A stretch of DNA of 39,764 bases from an uncultured Rubrivivax sp. (GTDB taxonomy: Bacteria > Pseudomonadota > Gammaproteobacteria > Burkholderiales > Burkholderiaceae_C): assembly GCA_937967345.1 (NCBI GenBank), contig CALBTN010000104.1:1-39764 (forward strand). The letters are read 5' to 3'. Shown in pieces: positions 7,416 through 17,678 of this stretch; positions within the stretch are counted from its first letter, which is position 1, and each line of letters opens with the position of its first letter. Both the position numbers and the translations under genes were made by a program. The notes beneath the pieces are model-generated. The model was not told the origin of the DNA. It did no database searches and worked only from the letters and a program-made list of their open reading frames with translations.

Positions 7416-8087
7416 ATGACACAAACCATCGCAGTCATCGGCGGCAGCGGCAACCTGGGCGCGGCGCTGGCGCGGCGCTGGGCCAAGGCCGGACGCAGCG
7501 TGATCATCGGCTCGCGCGACGCGGCCAAGGCCGCCAACGCCGCCGCGCAGCTCGCGGCCGAGCTGAAGGTCGAGGTCGGGGGCGCTGGCAACCTCGAAGC
7601 CGCACAGCGCGCCGACGTGGTGGTGGTGGCGGTGCCCTTTGCCTCGCAGCTGCAGGTGCTGGAAGAAATCCGCCCTGCCCTGGCCGGCAAGGTGGTGATC
7701 GACACCACGGTGCCGCTGCTGCCGCCCAAGGTGATGCGGGTGCAGCTGCCGGCCGAAGGCAGCGCGGCGCAGCGCGCGCAGGCGCTGCTGGGCGCCGAGG
7801 TGCGGCTGGTGTCGGCCTTCCACAACGTGGCGGCGCACAAGCTGGCCACCGACGAAGAGGTGCAGTGCGACGTGCTGGTGTTCGGCGACGACAAGGCCGC
7901 GCGCGCGGTGGCGGTGGAGCTGGCGCAGCAAGCCGGGCTGCGCGGGCTGCACGCCGGCGCGCTGGCCAACTCGGCGGCCGCCGAGGCGCTGACCTCGGTC
8001 CTGATCTTCATGAACAAGACCTACCGCGTCGACGGTGCCGGCATCTGCATCACCGGCCAGCTCGACATGGCGGCGGCCGCCGCCTGA
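7416..8087 (+). CDS. npdG: NADPH-dependent F420 reductase (F420H2:NADP+ oxidoreductase, Fno)
   Basis: IAVIGGSGNLG Rossmann motif, IIGSRD, VAVPF, DTTVPL, VSAFHNVAA and EALTSVLIFMN..Y. Adjacent to cof genes. Confidence 0.93.
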   Translation: MTQTIAVIGGSGNLGAALARRWAKAGRSVIIGSRDAAKAANAAAQLAAELKVEVGGAGNLEAAQRADVVVVAVPFASQLQVLEEIRPALAGKVVIDTTVPLLPPKVMRVQLPAEGSAAQRAQALLGAEVRLVSAFHNVAAHKLATDEEVQCDVLVFGDDKAARAVAVELAQQAGLRGLHAGALANSAAAEALTSVLIFMNKTYRVDGAGICITGQLDMAAAAA

Positions 8088-8112
8088 CCCAGCCGAGTCG
8101 CGGGCCCTGAGC

Positions 8113-8907
8113 ATGGGCGCATCGGTCAGCTTCACGCCGCTACCCGGTCTGCCGGAGGTGCATGCGGGCGACGACCTGGCCACGCTGATCCTGGCTGCGG
8201 CGCAGCGCGCCGGCATCGCCATCGGTGACGACGCCATCGTCGTCGTCGCGCAGAAGATCGTCTCCAAGGCCGAGGGCCGCAGCGTCGCGCTGAACTCGGT
8301 GACGCCGTCGGCACGCGCGGTCGAGCTGGCCGGCATCACCGGCAAGGACGCGCGCGTGATCGAGCTGATCCTGTCGGAGTCCAGCGCGGTGCTGCGCGCG
8401 GTGCCCAACGTGCTGGTGGTGCGCCACCGCCTGGGCTACGTGATGGCCAACGCCGGCATCGACCGCTCCAACGTGCCCGGCGACGAGGGGCGCCATGGTG
8501 GCAACGGCAGCGGCGGCGCCGAGCGGGTGCTGCTGCTGCCGCTGGCACCCGACCGCTCGGCCGAAGACCTGCGCGAGCGGCTGCAGCAGCGCGCGGGCGT
8601 GCGCCCGGGTGTCATCGTCAGCGACAGCTTCGGCCGGCCCTGGCGCAACGGCGTGGTCAACGTCGCGCTGGGCGCGGCCGGCGTGCCGTCGCTGATCGAC
8701 CGCCGCGGCGAGCTCGACCGCCAGGGGCGCAAGCTCGAAGTCACGCAGGTGGCCTTTGCCGACGCGGTGTGCGCCGGCGCGGCGCTGGCCATGGGCGAGG
8801 CCGCCGAAGGCACGCCGGTGGTGGTGGTCGACGGGCTGCGGCCGCGCGCGCCGCTGTGCGATGCCAGCACGCTGGTCCGAGCGCTCGAGCAGGACTTGTT
8901 CCAATGA
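8113..8907 (+). CDS. cofE: Coenzyme F420-0:gamma-glutamyl ligase (stand-alone CofE, no nitroreductase domain)
   Basis: LPEVHAGDDL, QKIVSKAEG, MANAGIDRSN, VSDSFGRPWRNG and MGEAAEGTPV. Start at ATG 8113. Confidence 0.95.
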   Translation: MGASVSFTPLPGLPEVHAGDDLATLILAAAQRAGIAIGDDAIVVVAQKIVSKAEGRSVALNSVTPSARAVELAGITGKDARVIELILSESSAVLRAVPNVLVVRHRLGYVMANAGIDRSNVPGDEGRHGGNGSGGAERVLLLPLAPDRSAEDLRERLQQRAGVRPGVIVSDSFGRPWRNGVVNVALGAAGVPSLIDRRGELDRQGRKLEVTQVAFADAVCAGAALAMGEAAEGTPVVVVDGLRPRAPLCDASTLVRALEQDLFQ

Positions 8908-9899
8908 CCCAACCCGGCGGCGCGCGCGTGGCCGCGCTGTGCGGCGGCGTCGGCGGCGCCAAGCTGGCCGACGGCCTGCTGCGCGTGCTGCCGCCCGACT
9001 GCCTGGGCCTGATCGTCAACACCGGCGACGACTTCGAGCACCTGGGGCTGCACGTCTCGCCCGACATCGACACCGTGGTCTACACGCTGTCGGGGCTGGC
9101 CAACCCGGCCACCGGCTGGGGCCGCCGCGACGAGAGCTGGAACTTCATGCAGGCGCTGCAGGCGCTGGGCGGCCCCACCTGGTTTCGCCTGGGTGATGGC
9201 GACCTGGCGATGCACGTGCAGCGCACCCAGCGGCTGGCGCAAGGCGAGCCGTTGAGCGCGATCACCGCCGACATCGCGCAGCGCCTGGGCATCGCCGCGC
9301 GGCTGCTGCCGATGAGCGACGGCCGGCTGCGCACCCGGGTGCGCACCGACAACGGCTGGATCGACTTCCAGGACTACTTCGTGCGCCAGCAGTGCCAGCC
9401 GACGGTGCGCGAGATCGGCTTCGACGGCGCCGCGGCGTGCACGCCGGCGCCGGGCGTGGCCGAACTGTTGGCGCAAGCGCAACTCGAAGCCATCGTGATC
9501 TGCCCGTCCAACCCCTACCTCAGCGTCGCCCCGGTGCTGGCCGTGCCGGGGCTGCGCGGGTTGCTGCGCGCGGCCGGCGTGCCGATCGTCGCGGTCTCGC
9601 CGCTGATCGCCGGGGCCGCGGTCAAGGGGCCGACCGCCAAGATCATGGCCGAGCTGGGCCACGCAAGCAGCGCGGCCGAAGTCGCGCGCTACTACGAAGG
9701 GCTGATCGACGGCTTCGTGCTCGACGAGCGCGACGCGGCGCTGGCCGCCCGGATCGGCGTGCCGGTGCGCTCGTGCGACACGCTGATGCAATCGGCCGAC
9801 GACCGCCAGCGCGTCGCGCGGCACACGCTGCAACTGGCCGGCGAACTGGCGCGCAGCCTGGCCACCGAGCTGGCCGCCCGGCGATCGAGGGCGACATGA
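8904..9899 (+). CDS. cofD: 2-phospho-L-lactate/PEP transferase (CofD/FbiA)
   Basis: LCGGVGGAKL, VNTGDDF, SPDIDTV, WFRLGDGD, FQDYFV, PSNPYLS and VSPLI..AVKGP. ATGA overlap with cofE. Confidence 0.96.
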   Translation: MTQPGGARVAALCGGVGGAKLADGLLRVLPPDCLGLIVNTGDDFEHLGLHVSPDIDTVVYTLSGLANPATGWGRRDESWNFMQALQALGGPTWFRLGDGDLAMHVQRTQRLAQGEPLSAITADIAQRLGIAARLLPMSDGRLRTRVRTDNGWIDFQDYFVRQQCQPTVREIGFDGAAACTPAPGVAELLAQAQLEAIVICPSNPYLSVAPVLAVPGLRGLLRAAGVPIVAVSPLIAGAAVKGPTAKIMAELGHASSAAEVARYYEGLIDGFVLDERDAALAARIGVPVRSCDTLMQSADDRQRVARHTLQLAGELARSLATELAARRSRAT

Positions 9900-10570
9900 G
9901 CTGCTGGGCACTGATCGCACTGAAATCCTTCGCCTGCGGCAAGACCCGGCTGGCGCAGGTGCTGCCGCTGCCCGAGCGCGAAGCCCTGAGCCGCAGGATG
10001 CTCGACCAGGTGGTGTGCGCGCTGCAGGCCGCACACGAAGTCGACGGCATCGCCATCGTGACGCAGCAAGCCGGCCCGCTGCCGGCCAACGTGCTGCCCC
10101 TCCCCGACCCCGGCGGCGGTCTGAACGCCGCGCTGGCCAGCGGCGCAAGGCAGCTGGCCGCCATCGGCGCGACCGAGTTGCTGGTGCTGCACGCCGACCT
10201 GCCCTTGCTGGCGGCCGACGAGATCGACGACTTCATCGTGCAAGCACGCCGCACCGGGCTGGGCCTGGCCAGCGACCGCATCGGCCACGGCACCAACGCG
10301 GTGTTCGTCGCGCCGCCGCTGGCCTTCGATTTCTGCTTCGGCCGCTACAGCTTCATGCGCCACCGCCAGCAAGCGCGCGAACGCGGCCTGCAGCCCTTTG
10401 TCGCCAGCGCGCCGGGTTTCGCCTTCGACATCGACGAGCCGGCCGACCTCGCGGCGCTGCTGGCGGCCCACGGCGAGCACTTCGCCCCAACCCTTGACGC
10501 CTGGAAGCCGATGCCATGGACCACGCGATTGAACGACTGCTCGGCCTCGCCCGCGACGCAGGCCGACTGA
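9896..10570 (+). CDS. cofC: 2-phospho-L-lactate/PEP guanylyltransferase (CofC/FbiD)
   Basis: LK...GKTRL, GGLNAAL, LHADLPL, GTNA, FG..SF..H and DIDEPADL. ATGA overlap with cofD. Confidence 0.93.
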   Translation: MSCWALIALKSFACGKTRLAQVLPLPEREALSRRMLDQVVCALQAAHEVDGIAIVTQQAGPLPANVLPLPDPGGGLNAALASGARQLAAIGATELLVLHADLPLLAADEIDDFIVQARRTGLGLASDRIGHGTNAVFVAPPLAFDFCFGRYSFMRHRQQARERGLQPFVASAPGFAFDIDEPADLAALLAAHGEHFAPTLDAWKPMPWTTRLNDCSASPATQAD

Positions 10571-12963
10571 GCCCGCAGCAACTGCTGACGCTGGCGCAGC
10601 ACGCGCCGCTGCACGCGCTTGTGGATTGCGCCGAGCAGCTGACGCTGCAGGGCCACGGCCGGCGCGTGGGTTATTCGCGCAAGGTCTTCATCCCGCTGAC
10701 GCGGCTGTGCCGCGACGCCTGCGGCTACTGCACCTTCGCCACCGCGCCGCGCTCGCTGCCCAGCGCCTACCTCAGCGCCGACGAGGTGCTGGCGATCGCC
10801 CGGGCCGGCGTACAGGCCGGCTGCCATGAGGCGCTGTTCACCCTGGGCGAGAAGCCCGAAGCGCGCTACCGCGCGGCGCGCGAGGCGCTGGACCGCATGG
10901 GCCACGCCAGCACCATCGACTACGTGGCGGCGATGGCCGAGCTGGTGCACCGTGAAACCGGCCTGCTGCCGCACCTGAACCCGGGCAACCTGAGCACGGC
11001 CGAGCTGGCCCAGCTGCGCCCGCTCGCGGCGTCGATGGGGCTGATGCTCGAATCGTCGGCCGAGCGGCTGACCGAGCGCGGCGGGCCGCACTGGAAGTGC
11101 CCCGACAAGCTGCCCGCCACCCGCCTCGCGACGCTGGACGCGGCGGGCGCGGCCCAGGTGGCGATGACCAGCGGCATCCTGATCGGCATCGGCGAGACCC
11201 GCGCCGAGCGCGTGCACTCGCTGCTGGCGCTGCGCGAGTTGCACGAGCGCCACGGCCACGTCCAGGAAGTGATCGTGCAGAACTTCCGCGCCAAGCCCGG
11301 CACGCGCATGGCGCATGCGCCCGAGCCGACGCTGGACGAGCACGCCTGGAGCATCGCGATGGCGCGGCTGGTGTTCGGTGCCGCGATGTCGATCCAGGCG
11401 CCGCCGAACCTGCGCCCCGGCGAACTGGCGCCGCTGCTGCGCGCCGGCATCAACGACTGGGGCGGCGTCTCGCCGGTGACGATCGACCACGTCAACCCCG
11501 AGGCCGCGTGGCCGCACCTGGACGAGCTCGAAGCTCAGACCCGCGAGTGCGGCCGCGAGCTGGTCGAGCGTCTCGCTTTGGTGCCGGCCTACGCGCGCGA
11601 CGCCGCGCGCTGGACCGAAGGCACGATGCGCAAGGCGGTGCTTCGCCTGGCCGACAGCGAGGGCTTCGCCCGGCCCGACGCCTGGCTGGCCGGCACCGGC
11701 GCGGCGCCGACGCCCGCCGTCGCCGCAGCCGTGGCCGGCGCCGCGCGCAGCGACCCCGCCAAAGCCTCGCGCGAAGTGGCCGCACTGCTGGCGCGCGCGC
11801 GCGACGGCCACGAGCTGGACGAAGCCGGCATCGTGCGCCTGTTCGCGGCACGCGACGCCGACTTCCAGGCGGTGGTGCAGGCAGCCGACGCGCTGCGCGC
11901 CGAGGTGGTCGGCGACACCGTCACCTTCGTGCGCAACTGCAACATCAACTACACCAACATCTGCCAGCACCGCTGCGGCTTTTGCGCCTTTGCCAAGAGC
12001 CGCAGCGCGCACAGCCTGCGCGGCCCGGCCTACAAGCTCGAGGCCGACGAGGTCGCCGAGCGTGCGCTGCAAGCCTGGGCCGACGGCGCCGGCGAGGTCT
12101 GCATGCAAGGCGGCATCCATCCGCACTACACCGGGCAGACCTACCTCGACCTGGTGGCTGCGGTGAAGGCCGCGGTGCCCGGCATGCACGTGCACGCGTT
12201 CTCGCCGCTGGAAGTGCTGCACGGCGCGCGCACGCTGGGGCTGAGCACCGCGCAGTTCCTGGCGCGGTTGCGCGACGCCGGCCTGGCCACCCTGCCCGGC
12301 ACCGCGGCCGAGATCCTCGACGACAAGGTCCGTGCGGTGATCTGCCCGGACAAGCTCAGCACCGACGAGTGGCTGCAGGTGATGCGCGACGCGCACGGCG
12401 TGGGCATCCGCAGCACCGCGACCATCATGTTCGGCCATGTCGAGCAGCCGCTGCACTGGGCGCGGCATCTGCTGCGCATTCGGCGGCTGCAGGCCGAGAC
12501 CGGCGGCTTCACCGAGCTGGTGCCGCTGCCCTTCGTGCACATGGAGTCGCCGCTGTGGCACAAGGGCGCGGCGCGTTCCGGGCCGACGCTGCGCGAAGCC
12601 GTGCTGATGCACGCGGTGGGCCGGCTGGTGCTGCACCCGCTGATCCCGAACATCCAGACGTCATGGGTCAAGATGGCGCCCGAGGGTGCGGCGTTGTGCC
12701 TGCGCGCCGGTGCCAACGACCTGGGCGGCACCTTGATGTACGAGTCGATCACCCGCGCCGCGGGCGGTGTCAACGGCCAACTGCTGGACGAATCGGACAT
12801 GCGCGGCATCGCCGCCAGCGTCGGGCGTGCGCTGGCCGAGCGCACCACGCTGTACGCGCGCGCTGCCGGGGTTGGCGGCGGCTTGTCGGCGCGGGCCTGC
12901 GCCGCATCGGCCACGGCGCCCATGGCGACCGCGACGGCGGCACCAGCGAAGGTTGCGGTCTGA
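10516..12963 (+). CDS. fbiC: Bifunctional FO synthase (fused CofG-CofH radical SAM enzyme)
   Basis: Two radical-SAM CxxxCxxC motifs (YSRKVFIPLTRLCRDACGYC; NINYTNICQHRCGFCAF), plus GINDWGGVSP, LPGTAAEIL and GANDLGGTLMYESI. Confidence 0.97.
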   Translation: MDHAIERLLGLARDAGRLSPQQLLTLAQHAPLHALVDCAEQLTLQGHGRRVGYSRKVFIPLTRLCRDACGYCTFATAPRSLPSAYLSADEVLAIARAGVQAGCHEALFTLGEKPEARYRAAREALDRMGHASTIDYVAAMAELVHRETGLLPHLNPGNLSTAELAQLRPLAASMGLMLESSAERLTERGGPHWKCPDKLPATRLATLDAAGAAQVAMTSGILIGIGETRAERVHSLLALRELHERHGHVQEVIVQNFRAKPGTRMAHAPEPTLDEHAWSIAMARLVFGAAMSIQAPPNLRPGELAPLLRAGINDWGGVSPVTIDHVNPEAAWPHLDELEAQTRECGRELVERLALVPAYARDAARWTEGTMRKAVLRLADSEGFARPDAWLAGTGAAPTPAVAAAVAGAARSDPAKASREVAALLARARDGHELDEAGIVRLFAARDADFQAVVQAADALRAEVVGDTVTFVRNCNINYTNICQHRCGFCAFAKSRSAHSLRGPAYKLEADEVAERALQAWADGAGEVCMQGGIHPHYTGQTYLDLVAAVKAAVPGMHVHAFSPLEVLHGARTLGLSTAQFLARLRDAGLATLPGTAAEILDDKVRAVICPDKLSTDEWLQVMRDAHGVGIRSTATIMFGHVEQPLHWARHLLRIRRLQAETGGFTELVPLPFVHMESPLWHKGAARSGPTLREAVLMHAVGRLVLHPLIPNIQTSWVKMAPEGAALCLRAGANDLGGTLMYESITRAAGGVNGQLLDESDMRGIAASVGRALAERTTLYARAAGVGGGLSARACAASATAPMATATAAPAKVAV

Positions 12964-13099
12964 CGCGCAGGCTTCGACGATGGCGCACCTGTGCAGCGTC
13001 GGGCGGTTTTGGCGCTGCGTGGGCTGGCCAGGCCCCCGACACAGACCGCTGCGGATCGATTCGTACCACGCAGCGCCGGCGCGAGCGCTGCGAAGGCAC

Positions 13100-13362
13100 C
13101 CTTTGTCCCTTCCCCGGCATGGGCTGGCGGGCCCGATCGGGGTCGACGCGCGGGCCAGGCACTGGATGAGGTGTGACGCGGCGCCGAGTGCGCGCGTCGC
13201 CTGCGCGAAGATCGGCGCGCTCGACCAGTGGGGGGCGAAGTACAGCCGGATGCGCCGGGTGTTTCGGGGCACCACCGCAGTGAACACGTAGCCCAGCGCG
13301 GCCGGCAAAGTCTTGTCCAACCGGGCGTGAGCCTGGAGCCGGGCGCAGACCTCGTTGGGCAC
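13100..13362 (-). pseudogene. Possible degraded coding remnant, family unknown
   Basis: Minus-strand frame from GTG 13362 (LGYVFTAVVPRNTRRIRLYFAPHWSSAPIFAQAT...) is GC3-biased for ~75 codons, then decays into the fbiC antisense. The left boundary is approximate. Confidence 0.25.
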
Positions 13363-13418
13363 GACTCACGCTTGATCCATCGCCCAGCGCCCGCTAAGGT
13401 GCGGGCGGGTGACAGCGC

Positions 13419-15185
13419 ATGTTCGACGCGTCCAGGCTCTTCATCAGCTATCGCCGCAGCGATGCCGAGCGCACCGCTCGCGCGCTGTGCGAGGCCTTGC
13501 GCGCGCGCTTCGGCGCCGAGCGGGTGTTCTTCGACACTTCTGACATCCCCTTTGGCGAGGACTTCCAGCGCCTGGTGCGCGAGCGCATCGACGCCAGTGA
13601 TGTCGTCATCGCCGTCATCGGTCCGCGCTGGCTGCGCGTGACGAACGACAAGGGGCGCCGGCTGGCGCAGGCCGACGATCCGGTGCGCTTCGAATTGGTC
13701 ACCGCGCTGCAGTCGAACAAGCGCATCGTGCCGCTGCGGGTCGATGGCGCCGGCGCCCCGGCTGCCGATGAGCTGCCGGAGCCGTTGCGCCAATTGGCAC
13801 TGCTGAACATGCCCGAGTTGCGCGCCGCCAGCTTCGACATCGACATCAACGAACTGATGCGCCAGCTGCTCGGGCTGCCCCGGCACGACGTCGGACGCGC
13901 GGCGCGCTGGGCCGGCGCCGCCAAGGGCGGGCCGCTCGCCATCGTGCTGCTGGCCGCAGCGGTGCTGGCTGCGAGCTTCACCGGACTGTTCGACCTGCTG
14001 GGCCTGCACACGCGCTCGCAGCGCTGGCTGCTTTCTGCCGGCGAGTATCGCGGCGAGCGCGCGCCGGTGTTGCTGGTCACGCTCGACGCAGCCAGCGAGG
14101 CCGCGCTCGGCCGTGCGTTCTCCGCGGCCAACGCGGCAGCATGGCGTCGTGACCATGCGCGGCTGATCCAGCGCGCGGCGGATGCGGGCGCGAGCGCGAT
14201 CGCCTTCGACCTGTTCTTCGAAAGTCCGACCGCGGCCGACGCTGAACTGGCCGAGGCCATCGCGCAGGCGCGACGGCGCCAGCCGCCGCTGCAGGTGGTG
14301 GTCGGTGCGCGCGCTGGACCTGACGGCGAGCCGCGCCTGGTTCCCGCGCTGCGCGCCGCCGCCGCGTGGGGCTCGCTGTGCCTGACCGATCGCGGCGGCG
14401 GCGTGCTGTGGTCGGCTCCGCTGGCGGTGTTGCGGCCGCAGCGCGGCGCCGCGGGTGAACTCGCCAGCGCCGACACGCCGGCGCTGGCGCTGGCTGCGGT
14501 GGCGCCCTCGACCTTGCGCGCCGCCGACCTGTCGCGGCGCGAACTGCTGTTCGACGGCCCGCCGCGCGATCCACCGCTGCGCTTCAGCACGGTGGAGCGT
14601 CAGCGGGTGGCCTTGCCTGGCTGCACTCTCAGCAGCGCTGGCGATGATCTGGCGATGCTGCGCTTGCGTGTGTCGCGCGAAGGCTTCTGGCGCCAGCCGG
14701 CGCGCAGCCTGTCGTATGCCGCAGCGCTCGACGAGCACGACGCTGCGCGTTTTGCAGGCCGCATCGTGCTCGTCGGCGTGACGGCCTTGGGCAGTGGCAC
14801 GCCCGATGCGCATACCGTGCTCGACGGCCTGCGCCCGCGCAGCGTCTTCGGCGTTGAACTGCAAGCCGACGCGCTGCGGGCACTGGCTGCCGCGCGCGTG
14901 CCGCGGCTGCCGACGCTGGATCGGCAACTGGCGACGACGCTGCTGGCGTGCGCGCTCGGCGCGGCGGTCGCCGTCTGGGGCTTCGAGCGCGCCGCCTGGC
15001 GGCGCCGCCTGGTGTTGCTCGCGGTGGCCGCGGCATGGACCGCAGCGGCATGGTGGCTGGCGCGGCACGACCTGCTGAGCGACCTCGTCACCGACTTGGT
15101 GACGCTGGCGCTGGCGGCGGCGCTGATTCGCGCGGTGCAGATCGTCGTCGTGCTCCTGCGCGCTTTCCGGAGGATTGCGAAATGA
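13419..15185 (+). CDS. TIR (TIR_2) domain - TM - CHASE2 sensor - 3 TM membrane protein
   Basis: N-terminal LFISYRRSD...VFFDTSDIPFGEDF...DVVIAVIGPRW...DDPVRFEL (TIR; E92 at the usual catalytic Glu position). TM at ~aa172-190. CHASE2 hallmarks VLLVTLD, W RR.HARLI...AGASAIAFDLFF...D..LA.AI, GRIVLVG and GVELQA. Three C-terminal hydrophobic helices, then stop. Confidence 0.9.
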   Translation: MFDASRLFISYRRSDAERTARALCEALRARFGAERVFFDTSDIPFGEDFQRLVRERIDASDVVIAVIGPRWLRVTNDKGRRLAQADDPVRFELVTALQSNKRIVPLRVDGAGAPAADELPEPLRQLALLNMPELRAASFDIDINELMRQLLGLPRHDVGRAARWAGAAKGGPLAIVLLAAAVLAASFTGLFDLLGLHTRSQRWLLSAGEYRGERAPVLLVTLDAASEAALGRAFSAANAAAWRRDHARLIQRAADAGASAIAFDLFFESPTAADAELAEAIAQARRRQPPLQVVVGARAGPDGEPRLVPALRAAAAWGSLCLTDRGGGVLWSAPLAVLRPQRGAAGELASADTPALALAAVAPSTLRAADLSRRELLFDGPPRDPPLRFSTVERQRVALPGCTLSSAGDDLAMLRLRVSREGFWRQPARSLSYAAALDEHDAARFAGRIVLVGVTALGSGTPDAHTVLDGLRPRSVFGVELQADALRALAAARVPRLPTLDRQLATTLLACALGAAVAVWGFERAAWRRRLVLLAVAAAWTAAAWWLARHDLLSDLVTDLVTLALAAALIRAVQIVVVLLRAFRRIAK

Positions 15186-15994
15186 ACGCGTTCAAGCTTT
15201 GGGTTCTGGCCGCGCTGGCGCTGCTGACCGGCTGCAGCGGTGTGCCAACCGGCACATCGGGCGTAGCGTCGATTCACCTGCAAAGCACCGTGCGCGACAT
15301 GGCGCCGGCAAGCCCGCGCTGGCAGATCGCCGAACCCGAAGCCGCCGGCGTGCGGGTGTGGCGCAATTTCGTGCCGGTGTCACCGTCGCGCGGGATGCAG
15401 CTCGAACCCGGCGACGTGGTGCAGACCGCGGCGGGTACGGCCGCCACCATCGTCTTCAGCGGCGGTGCCGGCGGCGGCACGGCGGTGCTCGACGAATCGA
15501 CCCGCGTGCGGGTCGGCTCGCTCGAGGTGTTCTTCGGACGAATCTTCGCCAACGTGCGCGGGCTGTTTGAAACCACCAGCCAGAACGTCGTCGCCGGCGT
15601 CGAAGGCACACAGTTCCTGTTCGAAGTCGGCCGTGATCGCGCCGTCCACGTCGGTGTGGTGCAAGGCGTGGTCGCCTGCCGCACGAAGGACGGCAGCTGG
15701 TCGGCGGTGCGCTTGGCGGCGGGCCAGTCGCTGCGCTCGGCGTACCCGAACCGCTCGCCGCCGCAGGTCGGGCAGGCTGATCCACGCGAACTGCGCGACG
15801 CTGCCGCATGGGCGGCGGCGGTGTCGAGTGCCGGCGAGGCCGAGCAGCCGGCCTACCGCGAGCCGCAGATCAACTTCGGCATCGGCATCGGCGGGCGCGG
15901 GGGCGATGCCCGAGGCGAGCCGCGACCGAAGTCGCAGCCCGACCCCGCCACCGGCAACAAGCCGCAGCAGCTGCAACCGCGGGGCAAGTACTGA
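15182..15994 (+). CDS. FecR-domain lipoprotein
   Basis: ATG 15182 overlaps the upstream stop (ATGA). Signal MNAFKLWVLAALALLTG-C18 (lipobox). FecR-like core LEPGDVVQT...LDESTRVRV...AGVEGTQFLFEV...VGVVQGVV. Low-complexity tail. Confidence 0.88.
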   Translation: MNAFKLWVLAALALLTGCSGVPTGTSGVASIHLQSTVRDMAPASPRWQIAEPEAAGVRVWRNFVPVSPSRGMQLEPGDVVQTAAGTAATIVFSGGAGGGTAVLDESTRVRVGSLEVFFGRIFANVRGLFETTSQNVVAGVEGTQFLFEVGRDRAVHVGVVQGVVACRTKDGSWSAVRLAAGQSLRSAYPNRSPPQVGQADPRELRDAAAWAAAVSSAGEAEQPAYREPQINFGIGIGGRGGDARGEPRPKSQPDPATGNKPQQLQPRGKY

Positions 15995-16239
15995 GCCAGC
16001 GCGGCGCAGGGAATCCTCAGGCCGACCGGCTGCCGAGCGGCTGCAGGTCGGGCTGCTGCGGCAGGCGATCGAGCTGCTGGCCGCCAGGGCACGCGGGCTG
16101 GCGCTGACCAAACTCGTGCCGGCCGAGGCGCACACCACCGAGCGTTTCGACACCAAGGAGCGCAGCCGGTCGGTGCGCTGCGGCCCGGCACGGCGCTGTC
16201 GAGGTGGGTGTTCCGCCACGTCAATCCCACGCCGGCGTA

Positions 16240-16253: not shown

Positions 16254-16360
16254 AGTCGCCCAAACAATGGCGATGCCCCGCATCGGCGGGGCCGCAGGCG
16301 GCCATGTCGCGGGCCCCGCCATCTGTCGTGCCACCAGGTCCGCATGCGGGAGACCGTGCG

Positions 16361-17408
16361 ATGACCGAGACCAAGCTTCAGGAGTTCATGGGCAGGCTGG
16401 TCGGCGACATGGGCGGCGCGGCGATCATGGCCAATGTGATCCTCGGCGACGAGCTGGGGCTGTACCGGTCGATGGCGGACGGGCAGCCGGTGACGCCGGA
16501 CGAACTCGCCGCGCGCACCGGCTGCCACCCCAGGCTGGTGCGCGAGTGGCTCAACGCCCAGGCGGCCAGTGGTTACGTCGAGCATGAGGCCGGGCGCTTC
16601 CGCCTGCCCGAGGAGCAAGCGCTGGCGCTGGCGGTCGAGGACTCGCCGGTGTACGTCGCCGGTGGCGCCAGCGTGCTGTCCAGCATGTTCCTGGACAAGG
16701 ACAAGCTGGTGGCAGCGATGCGCGGCAATGGCGCCTTGTCCTGGGCCGACCATCACCCTTGCCTGTTTTCGGGTACCGAGCGCTTCTTCCGCCCGGGCTA
16801 CAAGGCCAACCTGGTCAGCAGCTGGCTGCCGGCACTGGACGGCGTGGTGCCGCGGCTCGAGGCCGGCGCAAAGGTGGCCGATATCGGCTGTGGCCACGGC
16901 GCGTCGACCATCGTGATGGCGCAGGCCTATCCGAAATCGCGCTTCCACGGGTTCGACTTCCACCAGCCTTCGATAGACCAGGCGCGCCAGCGCGCGGCCG
17001 ACGCCGGCGTGGGCGACCGGGTGGAGTTCGCCCCGCGCGACGGCGCGCCAGTTCCCGGGCGACGACTACGACCTGGTCTGCTTCTTCGATTGCCTGCACG
17101 ACATGGGCGACCCGGTGGGCGCCGCCAAGCGCGCGCATCAGGCTCTCAAGCCTGGCGGAAGCGTGCTGCTGGTGGAGCCCTTCGCCAACGACGAACTCGA
17201 TCAGAACCTGAACCCGGTCGGACGTCTGTACTACGCAGCGTCCACCTGCATCTGCACCCCGAACTCGCTGTCGCAGGAGGTCGGGCTGGGCTTGGGGGCA
17301 CAGGCCGGCGAGCGGCGGCTGCGCCACGTCTTCGCCGAGGCAGGCTTCAGCAGCTTTCGGCGCGCTACCGAGACGCCGTTCAACCTCGTGCTCGAGGCAC
17401 GCAAGTAG
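16361..17408 (+). pseudogene. Class I SAM methyltransferase with N-terminal winged helix (Rv2258c-like), interrupted by a +1 frameshift
   Basis: LGDELGLYR..., REWLNAQAASGY and VADIGCGHGAST lie in one frame; DYDLVCFFDCLHDMGDP...ETPFNLVLEARK lies in the next. Removing one C from the C4 run at 17031-17034 restores a 348-aa ORF (VEFARATARQFPGDDYDL). Confidence 0.85.
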
Positions 17409-17678
17409 CTGCAGGAAAGCCTCAGCCGTGCGGCGGCCGCGGCGCACGCTTGGGCCTGAAAGCCTTGCACACCGCAGTGTCGGTGTCAGGGTAGAGAGCG
17501 TCGTCGATCAGGTCGACGCAGCAGTTGCTCGAAAGAGCCGGCCCGGACCACGGCTCGAGGGTTGTGCACTCGGGCGCGGGCTTCGACGCACCCCCGCGCC
17601 GCAGCCTGCTGCGGGAGTCGCTCGTCTACCCGCGCGCAGCCGATTCGACGAGGAAGGCGGGCCCCGCGCCCACTTCGA

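What the first reader, a model, noticed from the sequence alone, without database searches (positions are those of the whole stretch)
13419..15994. TIR-CHASE2 membrane receptor plus FecR lipoprotein: candidate trans-envelope signalling system with a TIR (NADase-type) output
Seen: a two-gene unit with an ATGA overlap. Gene 1 is a TIR domain (FISYRRSD; Glu92 at the catalytic position), one TM, a CHASE2 domain and three TMs, ending in RAFRRIAK with no C-terminal enzyme. Gene 2 is a lipobox (LTG-C, Ser at +2, predicting outer membrane) FecR-domain protein with no sigma factor or TonB receptor nearby. Known: CHASE2+3TM sensors typically signal through a C-terminal adenylate cyclase, kinase, GGDEF or HD-GYP domain and often neighbour FecR-domain genes. 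Bacterial TIR domains cleave NAD+ upon oligomerisation, causing NAD depletion or producing cyclic-ADPR-type signals (Thoeris, CBASS/Pycsar effectors). Inference: a Toll-like architecture in which a periplasmic event sensed via the lipoprotein (envelope damage, phage, predator contact) clusters the TIR domain. I know of no characterised system with this layout.
Basis: partly seen in the sequence, partly recalled or inferred. Interest (0 to 1): 0.88.

Follow-up and report, generated by a model that had tools for sequence, protein, structure and literature searches.

The report
Bacterial Toll-like receptor with periplasmic partner
A conserved two-gene cassette encodes a membrane protein that joins a predicted outward-facing CHASE2 sensor to a predicted inward-facing TIR domain, plus a predicted secreted FecR-fold partner, and it likely converts an outside danger cue into NAD+ breakdown, an untested bacterial parallel to Toll-like receptors.

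Summary
Observation confirmed. Gene 1 (13419-15185) is TIR-TM-CHASE2-3TM with no C-terminal enzyme; all 51 aligned full-length homologues end the same way. Glu92 is invariant and aligns with SARM1 E642; SARM1 is the closest solved fold. Gene 2 has a FecR/PupR fold and a lipobox. A FecR-like gene is adjacent in 33 of 34 loci, and three proteins fuse it to the receptor. The same CHASE2 subfamily swaps its N-terminal output: TIR (72 of 150 representatives), caspase-like CHAT (52), STAND, kinase, Lon-like. CHAT versions in one order sit behind Pepco, a published death effector. Best reading: a periplasm-sensing conflict receptor whose TIR likely cleaves NAD+. Against: Pro88 replaces SARM1's ligand-binding Trp; conflict neighbours are not significantly enriched (6/26 vs 1/15); a third of partners lack a lipobox, so 'trans-envelope' is unproven. 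CHASE2+FecR pairs and caspase-CHASE2 are published, and TIR+TM+CHASE2 appears unremarked in a 2021 supplement; I found no study of this wiring. The scan noted the same system earlier in other genomes (e1-5266721, e1-9974798). New variant of a known kind.

The parts
13419..15185 (+). Receptor gene, 588 aa: TIR - TM - CHASE2 - 3 TM, no C-terminal enzyme
   Evidence: 51 full-length homologues of 576-604 aa end right after the last TM
13437..13868 (+). TIR domain (about residues 7-150), predicted cytoplasmic, SARM1-like. Glu92 = 13692-13694; Pro88 = 13680-13682 (aligned with SARM1 Trp638)
   Evidence: Pfam TIR_2; phmmer to SARM1 E 1e-6; VIA-align Z 18.1, rmsd 2.7, 137 aligned; conservation counts
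13935..13991 (+). TM1 (residues 173-191)
   Evidence: hydropathy; helix in the model
13956..14945 (+). CHASE2 domain (Pfam 180-509), predicted periplasmic, with invariant Cys321 and Cys402
   Evidence: no solved homologue by sequence profile
14928..15155 (+). TM2-TM4 (residues 504-522, 530-548, 561-579), followed by a short basic tail
15182..15994 (+). Partner gene, 270 aa: signal peptide with lipobox (Cys18 = 15233-15235), FecR-fold domain (about residues 30-217) with invariant Gly142-Thr143 (15605-15610), disordered tail
13104..13278 (-). Remnant of the 3' end of a DDE transposase gene (Pfam DDE_Tnp_1_4; the name IS1380 is recalled) just upstream of the cassette
   Evidence: 80-83% DNA identity to the 3' end of transposase ORFs in G534, G561 and G587; Pfam E 1.6e-169 for the G534 ORF
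16044..16184 (+). Fragment matching the 3' end of a hexapeptide-repeat acetyltransferase gene (cysE-like; the name is my reading) just downstream of the cassette
   Evidence: 80% identity to the end of an ORF on contig C115, Pfam Hexapep

Best explanation
The two genes form a conserved, mobile receptor cassette whose FecR-fold partner likely acts on the predicted periplasmic CHASE2 domain, which would cluster the predicted cytoplasmic TIR domains so that they likely cleave NAD+ and would halt or kill the cell as a conflict response. Shown: the domain layout, the conservation and occasional fusion of the pair, the invariant Glu, the SARM1-like fold, and the swapping of TIR for caspase-like, STAND, kinase and Lon-like domains on the same sensor. 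Inferred: the membrane topology, partner-receptor contact, activation by oligomerisation, enzyme activity and the outcome. The trigger is unknown. By analogy with the NsrA-CyaK CHASE2 pathway, which responds to a free ribosomal protein found in cell extracts, a protein cue of nearby lysis or of envelope damage is the most plausible class. In most genomes no dedicated downstream gene lies beside the cassette, which favours the TIR as the terminal effector.
For: (1) Layout: all 51 aligned homologues end after TM4. Of the top 150 profile hits, 4 extend more than 60 aa past the module; three of these are FecR fusions and none has a cyclase or kinase tail. (2) Pair: a FecR-like gene is adjacent in 33 of 34 loci, in either order. 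DNA similarity in three same-genus genomes spans just the two genes. (3) Fusions: P0133 (TIR) and P0223 and P0244 (CHAT) carry the partner behind a fifth hydrophobic segment. Cluster mates P0277, P0278 and P0280 are also fused. This places FecR on the CHASE2 side of the membrane. (4) TIR: F8, S10, Y11, R12, R13, D39, G46, D87, V89 and E92 are invariant in 51 of 51. E92 is present in all 66 wider representatives that cover the position and aligns with SARM1 E642. The best folds are SARM1/TIR-1 at Z 17-18 against 13.7 for the next. Rough dN/dS is 0.20-0.25. (5) Effector swapping: TIR 72, CHAT 52, Lon-like 4, nSTAND1 1, kinase 1, unassigned 2, fragments 18 of 150. TIR also sits on scattered branches outside the main 65-member clade. 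(6) A Pepco gene lies upstream of 5 of 5 CHAT-CHASE2 loci that have upstream DNA; Pepco is a protease-activated death effector (bioRxiv 10.1101/2025.11.14.688446). (7) The cassette is rare and patchy: 7 of 201 genomes in the genus, 2 of 400 in the class, with a transposase remnant beside it. (8) Ordinary CHASE2 control loci often have a response regulator beside them (7 of 15); none appeared among the scanned neighbours of the 26 TIR-type loci.
Against: No activity was measured. The Glu is kept in more than 70% of all TIRs, including TLR1/2/6/10 (PMC7075850). Position 88, which matches a SARM1 Trp that binds ligand, is Pro in this protein and in 42 of 51 close homologues; it is aromatic in 47 of 69 wider rows. 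Conflict-type genes are among the nearest neighbours in only 6 of 26 loci, against 1 of 15 control loci (Fisher p 0.18), and the window's own context is metabolic. PADLOC and NCBIfam give only generic partial TIR matches, far below the curated cut-off where one is given. The Pepco loci all come from one order and are not independent. S. meliloti SMc02177, a FecR-domain protein beside a CHASE2 cyclase, was not needed for signal perception (PMC5498481). SARM1-likeness is probably a property of this whole bacterial TIR clade, since many TIR-only loci match at 36-48%.
Confidence: 0.5

Rival explanations
1. The TIR makes an ADP-ribose-derived second messenger (Thoeris-like) that activates separate caspase, CHAT, lipase or TPR-S effectors, rather than draining NAD+.
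For: In L016, L017, L022, L023, L024, L048 and L190 the cassette abuts caspase, DUF7379-CHAT, TPR-S, STAND or other TIR genes. The window's own genome carries such a caspase / DUF7379-CHAT-TPR-S / TPR-S operon on contig C196.
Against: About 19 of 26 loci have no such neighbour. In the genus the TPR-S protein does not track the receptor: 46 of 201 genomes match at E<=1e-20, but among the 7 receptor genomes only G000 has a full-length copy, two have weak partial matches and four have none.
Confidence: 0.2
2. A non-defence environmental signalling receptor in which the TIR is a weak or non-enzymatic assembly domain, as in animal TLRs, or tunes NAD+ for biofilm or growth control.
For: Pro88 in place of the aromatic residue. 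Mostly housekeeping neighbourhoods. Characterised CHASE2 systems control biofilm and symbiosis (PMC5192318, PMC13001267). The Glu alone does not prove catalysis.
Against: No conserved adaptor or regulator gene travels with the cassette. The alternative outputs on the same sensor are caspase-like proteases with intact dyad motifs in 39 of 46, STAND domains and Pepco-coupled proteases.
Confidence: 0.2
3. The partner is an inhibitor or trafficking reporter rather than a ligand-binding co-receptor. It normally keeps the receptor off, or leaves for the outer membrane; its loss, cleavage or mislocalisation switches the TIR on. This refines the trigger step and is compatible with either output.
For: The lipid anchor sits only about 10 residues before the folded domain (median 10 in 36 homologues), too short to span the periplasm by general knowledge. 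The model matches PupR residues 111-251 only, so it lacks the rest of that domain. Gly142-Thr143 is invariant in 59 of 59; FoxR self-cleaves (PMC10392083), at a Gly-Thr bond as I recall.
Against: Eleven of 33 partners have no lipobox by pattern. Fused forms exist, and two of them have lost the Gly. Gly-Thr may simply be the FecR family motif. L004, L007 and L022 show split receptor frames beside intact partners, which is uninformative.
Confidence: 0.08
4. A truncated CHASE2 cyclase or kinase, or a chance fusion without function.
For: Most described CHASE2 proteins have a C-terminal enzyme.
Against: The layout is conserved in 51 of 51 homologues and in about 70 clusters at 50% identity, under purifying selection, and the sequence is confirmed by independent contigs.
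Confidence: 0.02

Closest known systems
CHASE2 receptors with FecR-domain partners: S. meliloti NsrA-CyaK/CyaD1/CyaD2 (PMC7529298, PMC13001267, PMC5498481), Burkholderia BiofilmReg LysM-FecR + CHASE2 kinase (PMC5192318), Campylobacterota CHASE2 cyclase clusters (PMC9239204)
   Same: TM-CHASE2-3TM sensor beside a FecR-domain exported protein; 8 of 15 control CHASE2 loci also had one.
   Different: The output is an N-terminal TIR, not a C-terminal cyclase or kinase. The partner is a small FecR-only protein without barrel, TPR or LysM. No regulator gene travels with it.
Inverted caspase-CHASE2 receptors: Trichodesmium metacaspase-CHASE2 (PMC3501461); EACC2-caspase-CHASE2 (PMC8195603)
   Same: Predicted cytoplasmic N-terminal effector, one TM, extracellular CHASE2, three TMs. 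CHAT versions are the direct sisters of this receptor.
   Different: TIR output and a FecR partner. The main texts do not mention either. The 2021 supplement lists TIR+TM+CHASE2+3TM only as a neighbouring gene in two cyanobacterial species, and nSTAND1+TM+CHASE2 once.
SARM1/TIR-1 NADase TIR domain
   Same: Closest solved fold and sequence; shares the FISYRR box, the BB-loop Gly and the catalytic Glu.
   Different: Pro at the Trp638 position; activated, presumably, through a membrane sensor rather than ARM-SAM domains; activity untested.
TIR anti-phage systems (Thoeris, CBASS/Pycsar TIR effectors)
   Same: Bacterial TIR with the conserved Glu, patchy distribution, modular sensor-effector logic.
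   Different: No ThsA, cyclase, SAVED or STING partner. The sensor is predicted to be periplasmic. Only partial TIR matches to these models.
Animal Toll-like receptors
   Same: Outside sensor, membrane span, inside TIR.
   Different: Analogy only: no LRRs, four TMs, N-terminal TIR, probably enzymatic; the TIR fold is nearer SARM1 than TLR/IL-1R TIRs.

Membership tests
CHASE2 transmembrane receptor | [quoted passage not shown] | tested here: met
CHASE2 transmembrane receptor (canonical) | C-terminal cyclase, kinase, GGDEF or HD-GYP output | tested here: not met
   the protein ends 9 residues after TM4; 51 of 51 homologues likewise
NsrA-CyaK type outer-membrane relay | FecR-domain exported partner encoded beside the CHASE2 gene | tested here: met
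   33 of 34 loci; fold
NsrA-CyaK type outer-membrane relay | Partner carries an outer-membrane beta-barrel | tested here: not met
   270-aa protein with one folded domain and a disordered tail; homologues of 179-371 aa (near-length search only)
FecIRA cell-surface signalling | FecR is a membrane anti-sigma with an adjacent ECF sigma factor and TonB receptor | tested here: not met
   signal peptide and lipobox instead of a cytoplasmic anti-sigma domain; no sigma or TonB receptor among the window ORFs scanned; one ECF gene beside 1 of 26 loci (L191)
NADase TIR (SARM1-like) | Catalytic Glu in helix C | tested here: met
   E92 aligns with SARM1 E642; invariant
NADase TIR (SARM1-like) | Ligand-binding aromatic residue four positions before the Glu | tested here: not met
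   Pro88 here and in 42 of 51 close homologues; aromatic in 47 of 69 wider rows (role from PMC7075850)
NADase TIR (SARM1-like) | NAD+ cleavage on oligomerisation | not testable with these tools
   needs an enzyme assay
Thoeris | Adjacent ThsA-type effector binding the TIR product | tested here: not met
   no SIR2, macro or ThsA hit among neighbours of the window or of 26 TIR-type loci; TPR-S or unnamed proteins beside a few loci remain unassigned
Anti-phage defence system | Enrichment beside known defence or conflict genes | tested here: inconclusive
   6 of 26 versus 1 of 15, Fisher p 0.18
Anti-phage defence system | Protection against phage | not testable with these tools
   needs a phage challenge
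Outer-membrane lipoprotein (gene 2) | Lipobox without Asp at +2 | tested here: met
   LTG-C18-S; no Asp at +2 in 36 homologues with a lipobox; the sorting rule is recalled from E. coli and localisation is untested

The most novel reading that the evidence does not exclude
A bacterial innate-immune receptor family that watches the periplasm. One CHASE2/FecR sensing module detects a protein cue of attack or neighbour lysis outside the cytoplasm and fires interchangeable death outputs: a SARM1-like TIR NADase, a caspase with the Pepco pore, STAND, kinase or Lon-like protease. It would be a convergent Toll-like receptor that acts before the invader reaches the cytoplasm.
Probability: 0.3. Interest if true: 0.9.

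Novelty: new variant of a known kind. Interest (0 to 1): 0.66.

Why it matters
Characterised bacterial TIR systems, as I recall them, respond to phage products or nucleotides in the cytoplasm. A TIR switched on from the periplasm would show that bacteria use surface-receptor immune signalling like Toll-like receptors, possibly against predators, contact-dependent attack or neighbour lysis. Practically, a two-gene cassette with an NAD+ or viability read-out is a compact assay for two open questions: what CHASE2 domains sense (described as unknown in PMC5192318, 2016; no solved homologue found) and what stand-alone FecR-fold partners do. The TIR is also a bacterial domain whose closest solved relative is SARM1, with a natural active-site variant (Pro versus aromatic at position 88).

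Tried and rejected
Complex prediction of CHASE2 (190-500) with the partner (26-218) gave no answer, score 0.00, and is no evidence either way. RNA libraries: contigs in four runs cover the cassette and its flanks about evenly, so transcription is not shown. In-trans link to the C196 caspase/CHAT/TPR-S operon: no co-occurrence in the genus, so rejected as obligatory. Viral contigs: 94 pattern matches, none a relative. No solved CHASE2 homologue by profile; the fold searches were filled by the TIR, so the CHASE2 fold is untested. No sigma-70 promoter match, and no convincing terminator or terminal repeats. The N-terminal domain of P0170/P0182/P0186/P0213 is Lon-like only as a lead: Atlas 0.85 and 0.79, PDB E 0.14 on an archaeal-type Lon protease chain at a GDS motif. 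The unnamed domain beside L023/L024 found no family, so a SLOG label is not supported by my calls. The partner profile found no PDB hit by sequence. The FoxR self-cleavage paper was not held, so the Gly-Thr site is recalled. Long overlapping ORFs on the minus strand (12141-15068, 15380-16219) have no Pfam hit. Literature searches: CHASE2 + TIR domain (1 paper); CHASE2 + TIR + bacteria + transmembrane (2 papers); CHASE2 + FecR (4 papers, 3 listed); TIR domain + FecR (1 unrelated title, listing only); CHASE2 since 2019 (40 of 47 listed); and two broader TIR searches. None describes a TIR-CHASE2-FecR system. Subscription journals, bioRxiv supplements and file 13 of the PMC8195603 supplement were not seen.
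Full report
OBSERVATION. The window encodes a 588-aa protein at 13419-15185 and a 270-aa protein at 15182-15994, overlapping by ATGA. Pfam finds TIR_2 (8-129) and CHASE2 (180-509) in the first and nothing in the second at E 0.01. Hydropathy gives four TMs, and the AlphaFold2 model (51-row alignment, pLDDT 89) agrees. The TM2-TM3 loop and the tail each carry four basic residues and the TM3-TM4 loop one, which fits N-in, CHASE2 out, C-in; the counts around TM1 were uninformative (4 and 4). Topology therefore remains a prediction. Exact-match contigs from two other studies span the junction. The runs that hold the stretch and name a habitat are mostly sludge, bioreactor or wastewater samples. The 53 window ORFs scanned are F420, CoA-transferase, methyltransferase and transporter genes, with no sigma factor, TonB receptor or defence gene.

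NOT A TRUNCATION. A near-length search returned 59 hits, most annotated TIR_2 + CHASE2. I aligned the query with 50 full-length ones, leaving out fragments and TIR-only hits; all end within a few residues of TM4. A profile of the CHASE2+TM module from 10 loci found 290 representatives at E<=1e-30 among 1.84 billion. Of the best 150: 72 have an N-terminal TIR (68 by my profile, 4 by Pfam), 52 CHAT, 4 a Lon-like domain (lead only), 1 nSTAND1, 1 a Ser/Thr kinase, 2 unassigned, and 18 are fragments or lack an N-terminus. Four run more than 60 aa beyond the module; none has a cyclase or kinase tail. The profile was built from inverted members and so ranks them first; ordinary CHASE2 proteins score far lower. 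A FastTree of 135 rows puts the query in a clade of 65 TIR receptors (support 0.958), with 8 further TIR leaves scattered among CHAT branches; 14 label changes against a shuffled mean of 53. Deep supports are low and no clade test was run, so I claim repeated swapping but no order of events.

THE PARTNER. 68 proteins (the query included) were found. The model matches the PupR anti-sigma periplasmic domain (Z 15.1, rmsd 2.5, 130 aligned, PupR 111-251) and BDI_1681 (Z 14.8), with the next hit at 7.5. A FecR-like gene lies next to the receptor in 33 of 34 loci, upstream or downstream; the exception is the kinase version L009. Duplicates of the same genomes and contigs ending inside the receptor were left out. 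For L022, L023, L024 and L184 the receptor's N-terminus is off the contig, so TIR is assigned by similarity. 22 of 33 partners have a lipobox by pattern and 11 do not. Three representatives fuse the partner to the receptor behind a further hydrophobic segment that is the partner's own signal sequence: P0133 (TIR), and P0223 and P0244 (CHAT, 54% identical to each other). Cluster mates P0277, P0278 (91% identical) and P0280 are fused too. P0133 and its twin P0276 probably come from one assembly. I could not see the DNA of the fusions. They imply that the two domains work on the same side of the inner membrane. With the short lipid tether (median 10 residues) and the non-lipidated partners, this argues for a periplasmic co-receptor more than for a fixed bridge across the envelope. 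The complex prediction returned no answer and is not used.

THE TIR. Its closest solved relatives are SARM1 and TIR-1 by sequence (E 1e-6) and by fold (Z 18.1, rmsd 2.7, 137 aligned; next non-SARM 13.7; ThsB 12.2). Counting along the alignment, E92 matches E642, G46 G601, D39 D594 and Y11 Y568. All are invariant in 51 of 51, and E92 is present in all 66 of 69 wider rows that cover it. Rough dN/dS against three relatives is 0.20-0.25 for the TIR and 0.28-0.36 for CHASE2. Two cautions. The Glu is kept in over 70% of all TIRs, including TLR1/2/6/10 (PMC7075850 section 10). And the position matching SARM1's ligand-binding Trp is Pro in the query's subclade (42 of 51), although aromatic in 47 of 69 wider rows; many Pro-88 members have an aromatic at position 91. 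I put NADase activity of this protein at about two in three. The TIR belongs to a common bacterial clade found on many proteins without CHASE2 (also contig C417 of this genome), so SARM1-likeness is not special to this receptor.

DISTRIBUTION AND CONTEXT. Matches at E<=1e-30 occur in 7 of 201 genomes of the genus and 2 of 400 of the class, G000 included. At E<=1e-35 they occur in 8 of 251 of the family holding L005, 6 of 93 of the order holding L010, and 1 of 351 of the phylum holding L009. In three same-genus genomes the DNA match covers just the two genes, in different surroundings. A transposase remnant and an acetyltransferase-gene fragment flank the cassette here. Conflict-type Pfam domains (caspase, CHAT, TIR, STAND, TPR-S, DUF4062) are among the two nearest called genes on either side in 6 of 26 TIR-type loci (L016, L017, L022, L024, L048, L190; L023 would be a seventh on a looser rule). 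The control is 1 of 15 weakly scoring CHASE2 loci (Fisher p 0.18). Five of 20 control regions were dropped because my gene caller found no CHASE2 gene. The control receptors' output domains were not scanned, the control used three genes per side, E-value cut-offs differed between scans, L192 and L184 were not scored, and several loci are kin. The test is inconclusive. The own genome has a caspase / DUF7379-CHAT-TPR-S / TPR-S operon on C196 like those beside L017, L048 and L190, but it does not track the receptor across the genus. In contrast, all 5 CHAT-CHASE2-FecR loci with upstream DNA have a Pepco gene there (Pfam-confirmed in L010, L185 and L186; by similarity in L008 and L011). Pepco is a protease-activated pore-forming death effector (bioRxiv 10.1101/2025.11.14.688446, abstract and passages; CHASE is not mentioned there). 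These loci are from one order.

MECHANISM. Best reading (0.5): a cue in the periplasm acts through the FecR-fold partner on CHASE2, the receptor clusters, and the TIR cleaves NAD+ as the terminal effector of a conflict response. The main support for 'conflict' is the set of alternative outputs on the same sensor, the Pepco link and the patchy, mobile distribution; it is not the neighbourhood of the TIR loci. The only described CHASE2 input I found is indirect: free ribosomal protein uL2, active in plant, yeast and bacterial extracts, sensed through NsrA (PMC7529298 passages; PMC13001267 abstract and introduction). A lysis-type protein cue is therefore plausible but untested. Rivals are second-messenger signalling to separate effectors (0.2), non-defence or non-enzymatic signalling (0.2), a partner acting as inhibitor or trafficking reporter (0.08) and truncation (0.02).

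WHAT IS KNOWN. CHASE2 genes beside FecR-domain genes are published (PMC5192318, PMC9239204, PMC5498481; passages). The inverted caspase-CHASE2 layout is published (PMC3501461 passages; PMC8195603 passages). The supplements of PMC8195603 (12 of 13 files searched, one cut when stored) list TIR+TM+CHASE2+3TM as a neighbouring gene in Alkalinema and Stenomitos records and nSTAND1+TM+CHASE2+3TM once; FecR does not occur there as a domain label. The two held supplements of PMC7159879 have neither term. PMC10392083 (passages) states that FoxR self-cleaves. The searches listed under Tried and rejected found no description of the TIR-CHASE2-FecR system. Earlier notes of this scan report the same pair in other genomes; they are not independent support.

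VERDICT. Real, conserved and uncharacterised; a new variant of CHASE2/FecR signalling that works like a Toll-type receptor with a probably enzymatic TIR. It is not a member of Thoeris, FecIRA or the NsrA relay. Interest 0.66.

Noticed in passing
G000:C196:6571-15603 (L195), minus strand: Three-gene operon: caspase (C14), a 2036-aa ORF with DUF7379, lipase-like, CHAT and TPR-S domains, and a TPR-S protein with an unnamed C-terminal domain. The last gene matches 46 of 201 genus genomes. It looks like a conflict system in its own right and sometimes abuts the TIR-CHASE2 cassette.
   Followed up: partly
P0170, P0182, P0186, P0213: CHASE2 receptors with one or two copies of an unnamed N-terminal domain resembling the Lon protease C-terminal domain (weak hits).
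   Followed up: partly
L008, L010, L011, L185, L186: Pepco - CHAT-CHASE2 - FecR cassettes, often followed by a hybrid histidine kinase; a candidate periplasm-triggered pore-forming death system. L186 also has a SIR2-like gene nearby.
   Followed up: partly
P0223, P0244 and cluster mates: CHAT-CHASE2-FecR-PASTA fusions that keep an internal lipobox; the PASTA repeats hint at a peptidoglycan-related cue, and the protein might be processed into two chains.
   Followed up: partly
L009:6396-9119: Desulfonema receptor with a cyclase-like domain and a Ser/Thr kinase in front of the same CHASE2 module, with no FecR-like gene found within the fetched flanks.
   Followed up: partly
window 7416-12963: Complete-looking F420 biosynthesis cluster (F420 oxidoreductase, ligase, CofD, CofC, radical SAM CofG/H fusion) in this genome; the C-terminal part of the last gene matched only a minority of genus genomes.
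   Followed up: no
window 16304-17494: The HTH-methyltransferase gene appears frameshifted: its C-terminal part continues in ORF 17103-17408, whereas the G486 copy is in one frame.
   Followed up: no
window 13309-13344 and G000:C115:6230-6265: A 36-bp sequence (92% identical) occurs upstream of the receptor and about 0.8 kb from another TIR_2 gene on C115; possibly an insertion-sequence end.
   Followed up: no
P0078-P0086, P0093, P0102-P0126: Many partner homologues have a C-terminal tail of cysteine-rich repeats (WCC...C motifs), absent from the window's copy, whose tail is disordered.
   Followed up: no
L004, L007, L022 (receptor); L011 (last TMs): Receptor frames are split by frameshifts or a stop; these may be assembly errors or inactivation of a costly gene.
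   Followed up: no
L190:8640-10248: DUF6088-AbiEii type IV toxin-antitoxin pair directly upstream of a TIR-CHASE2 cassette.
   Followed up: no
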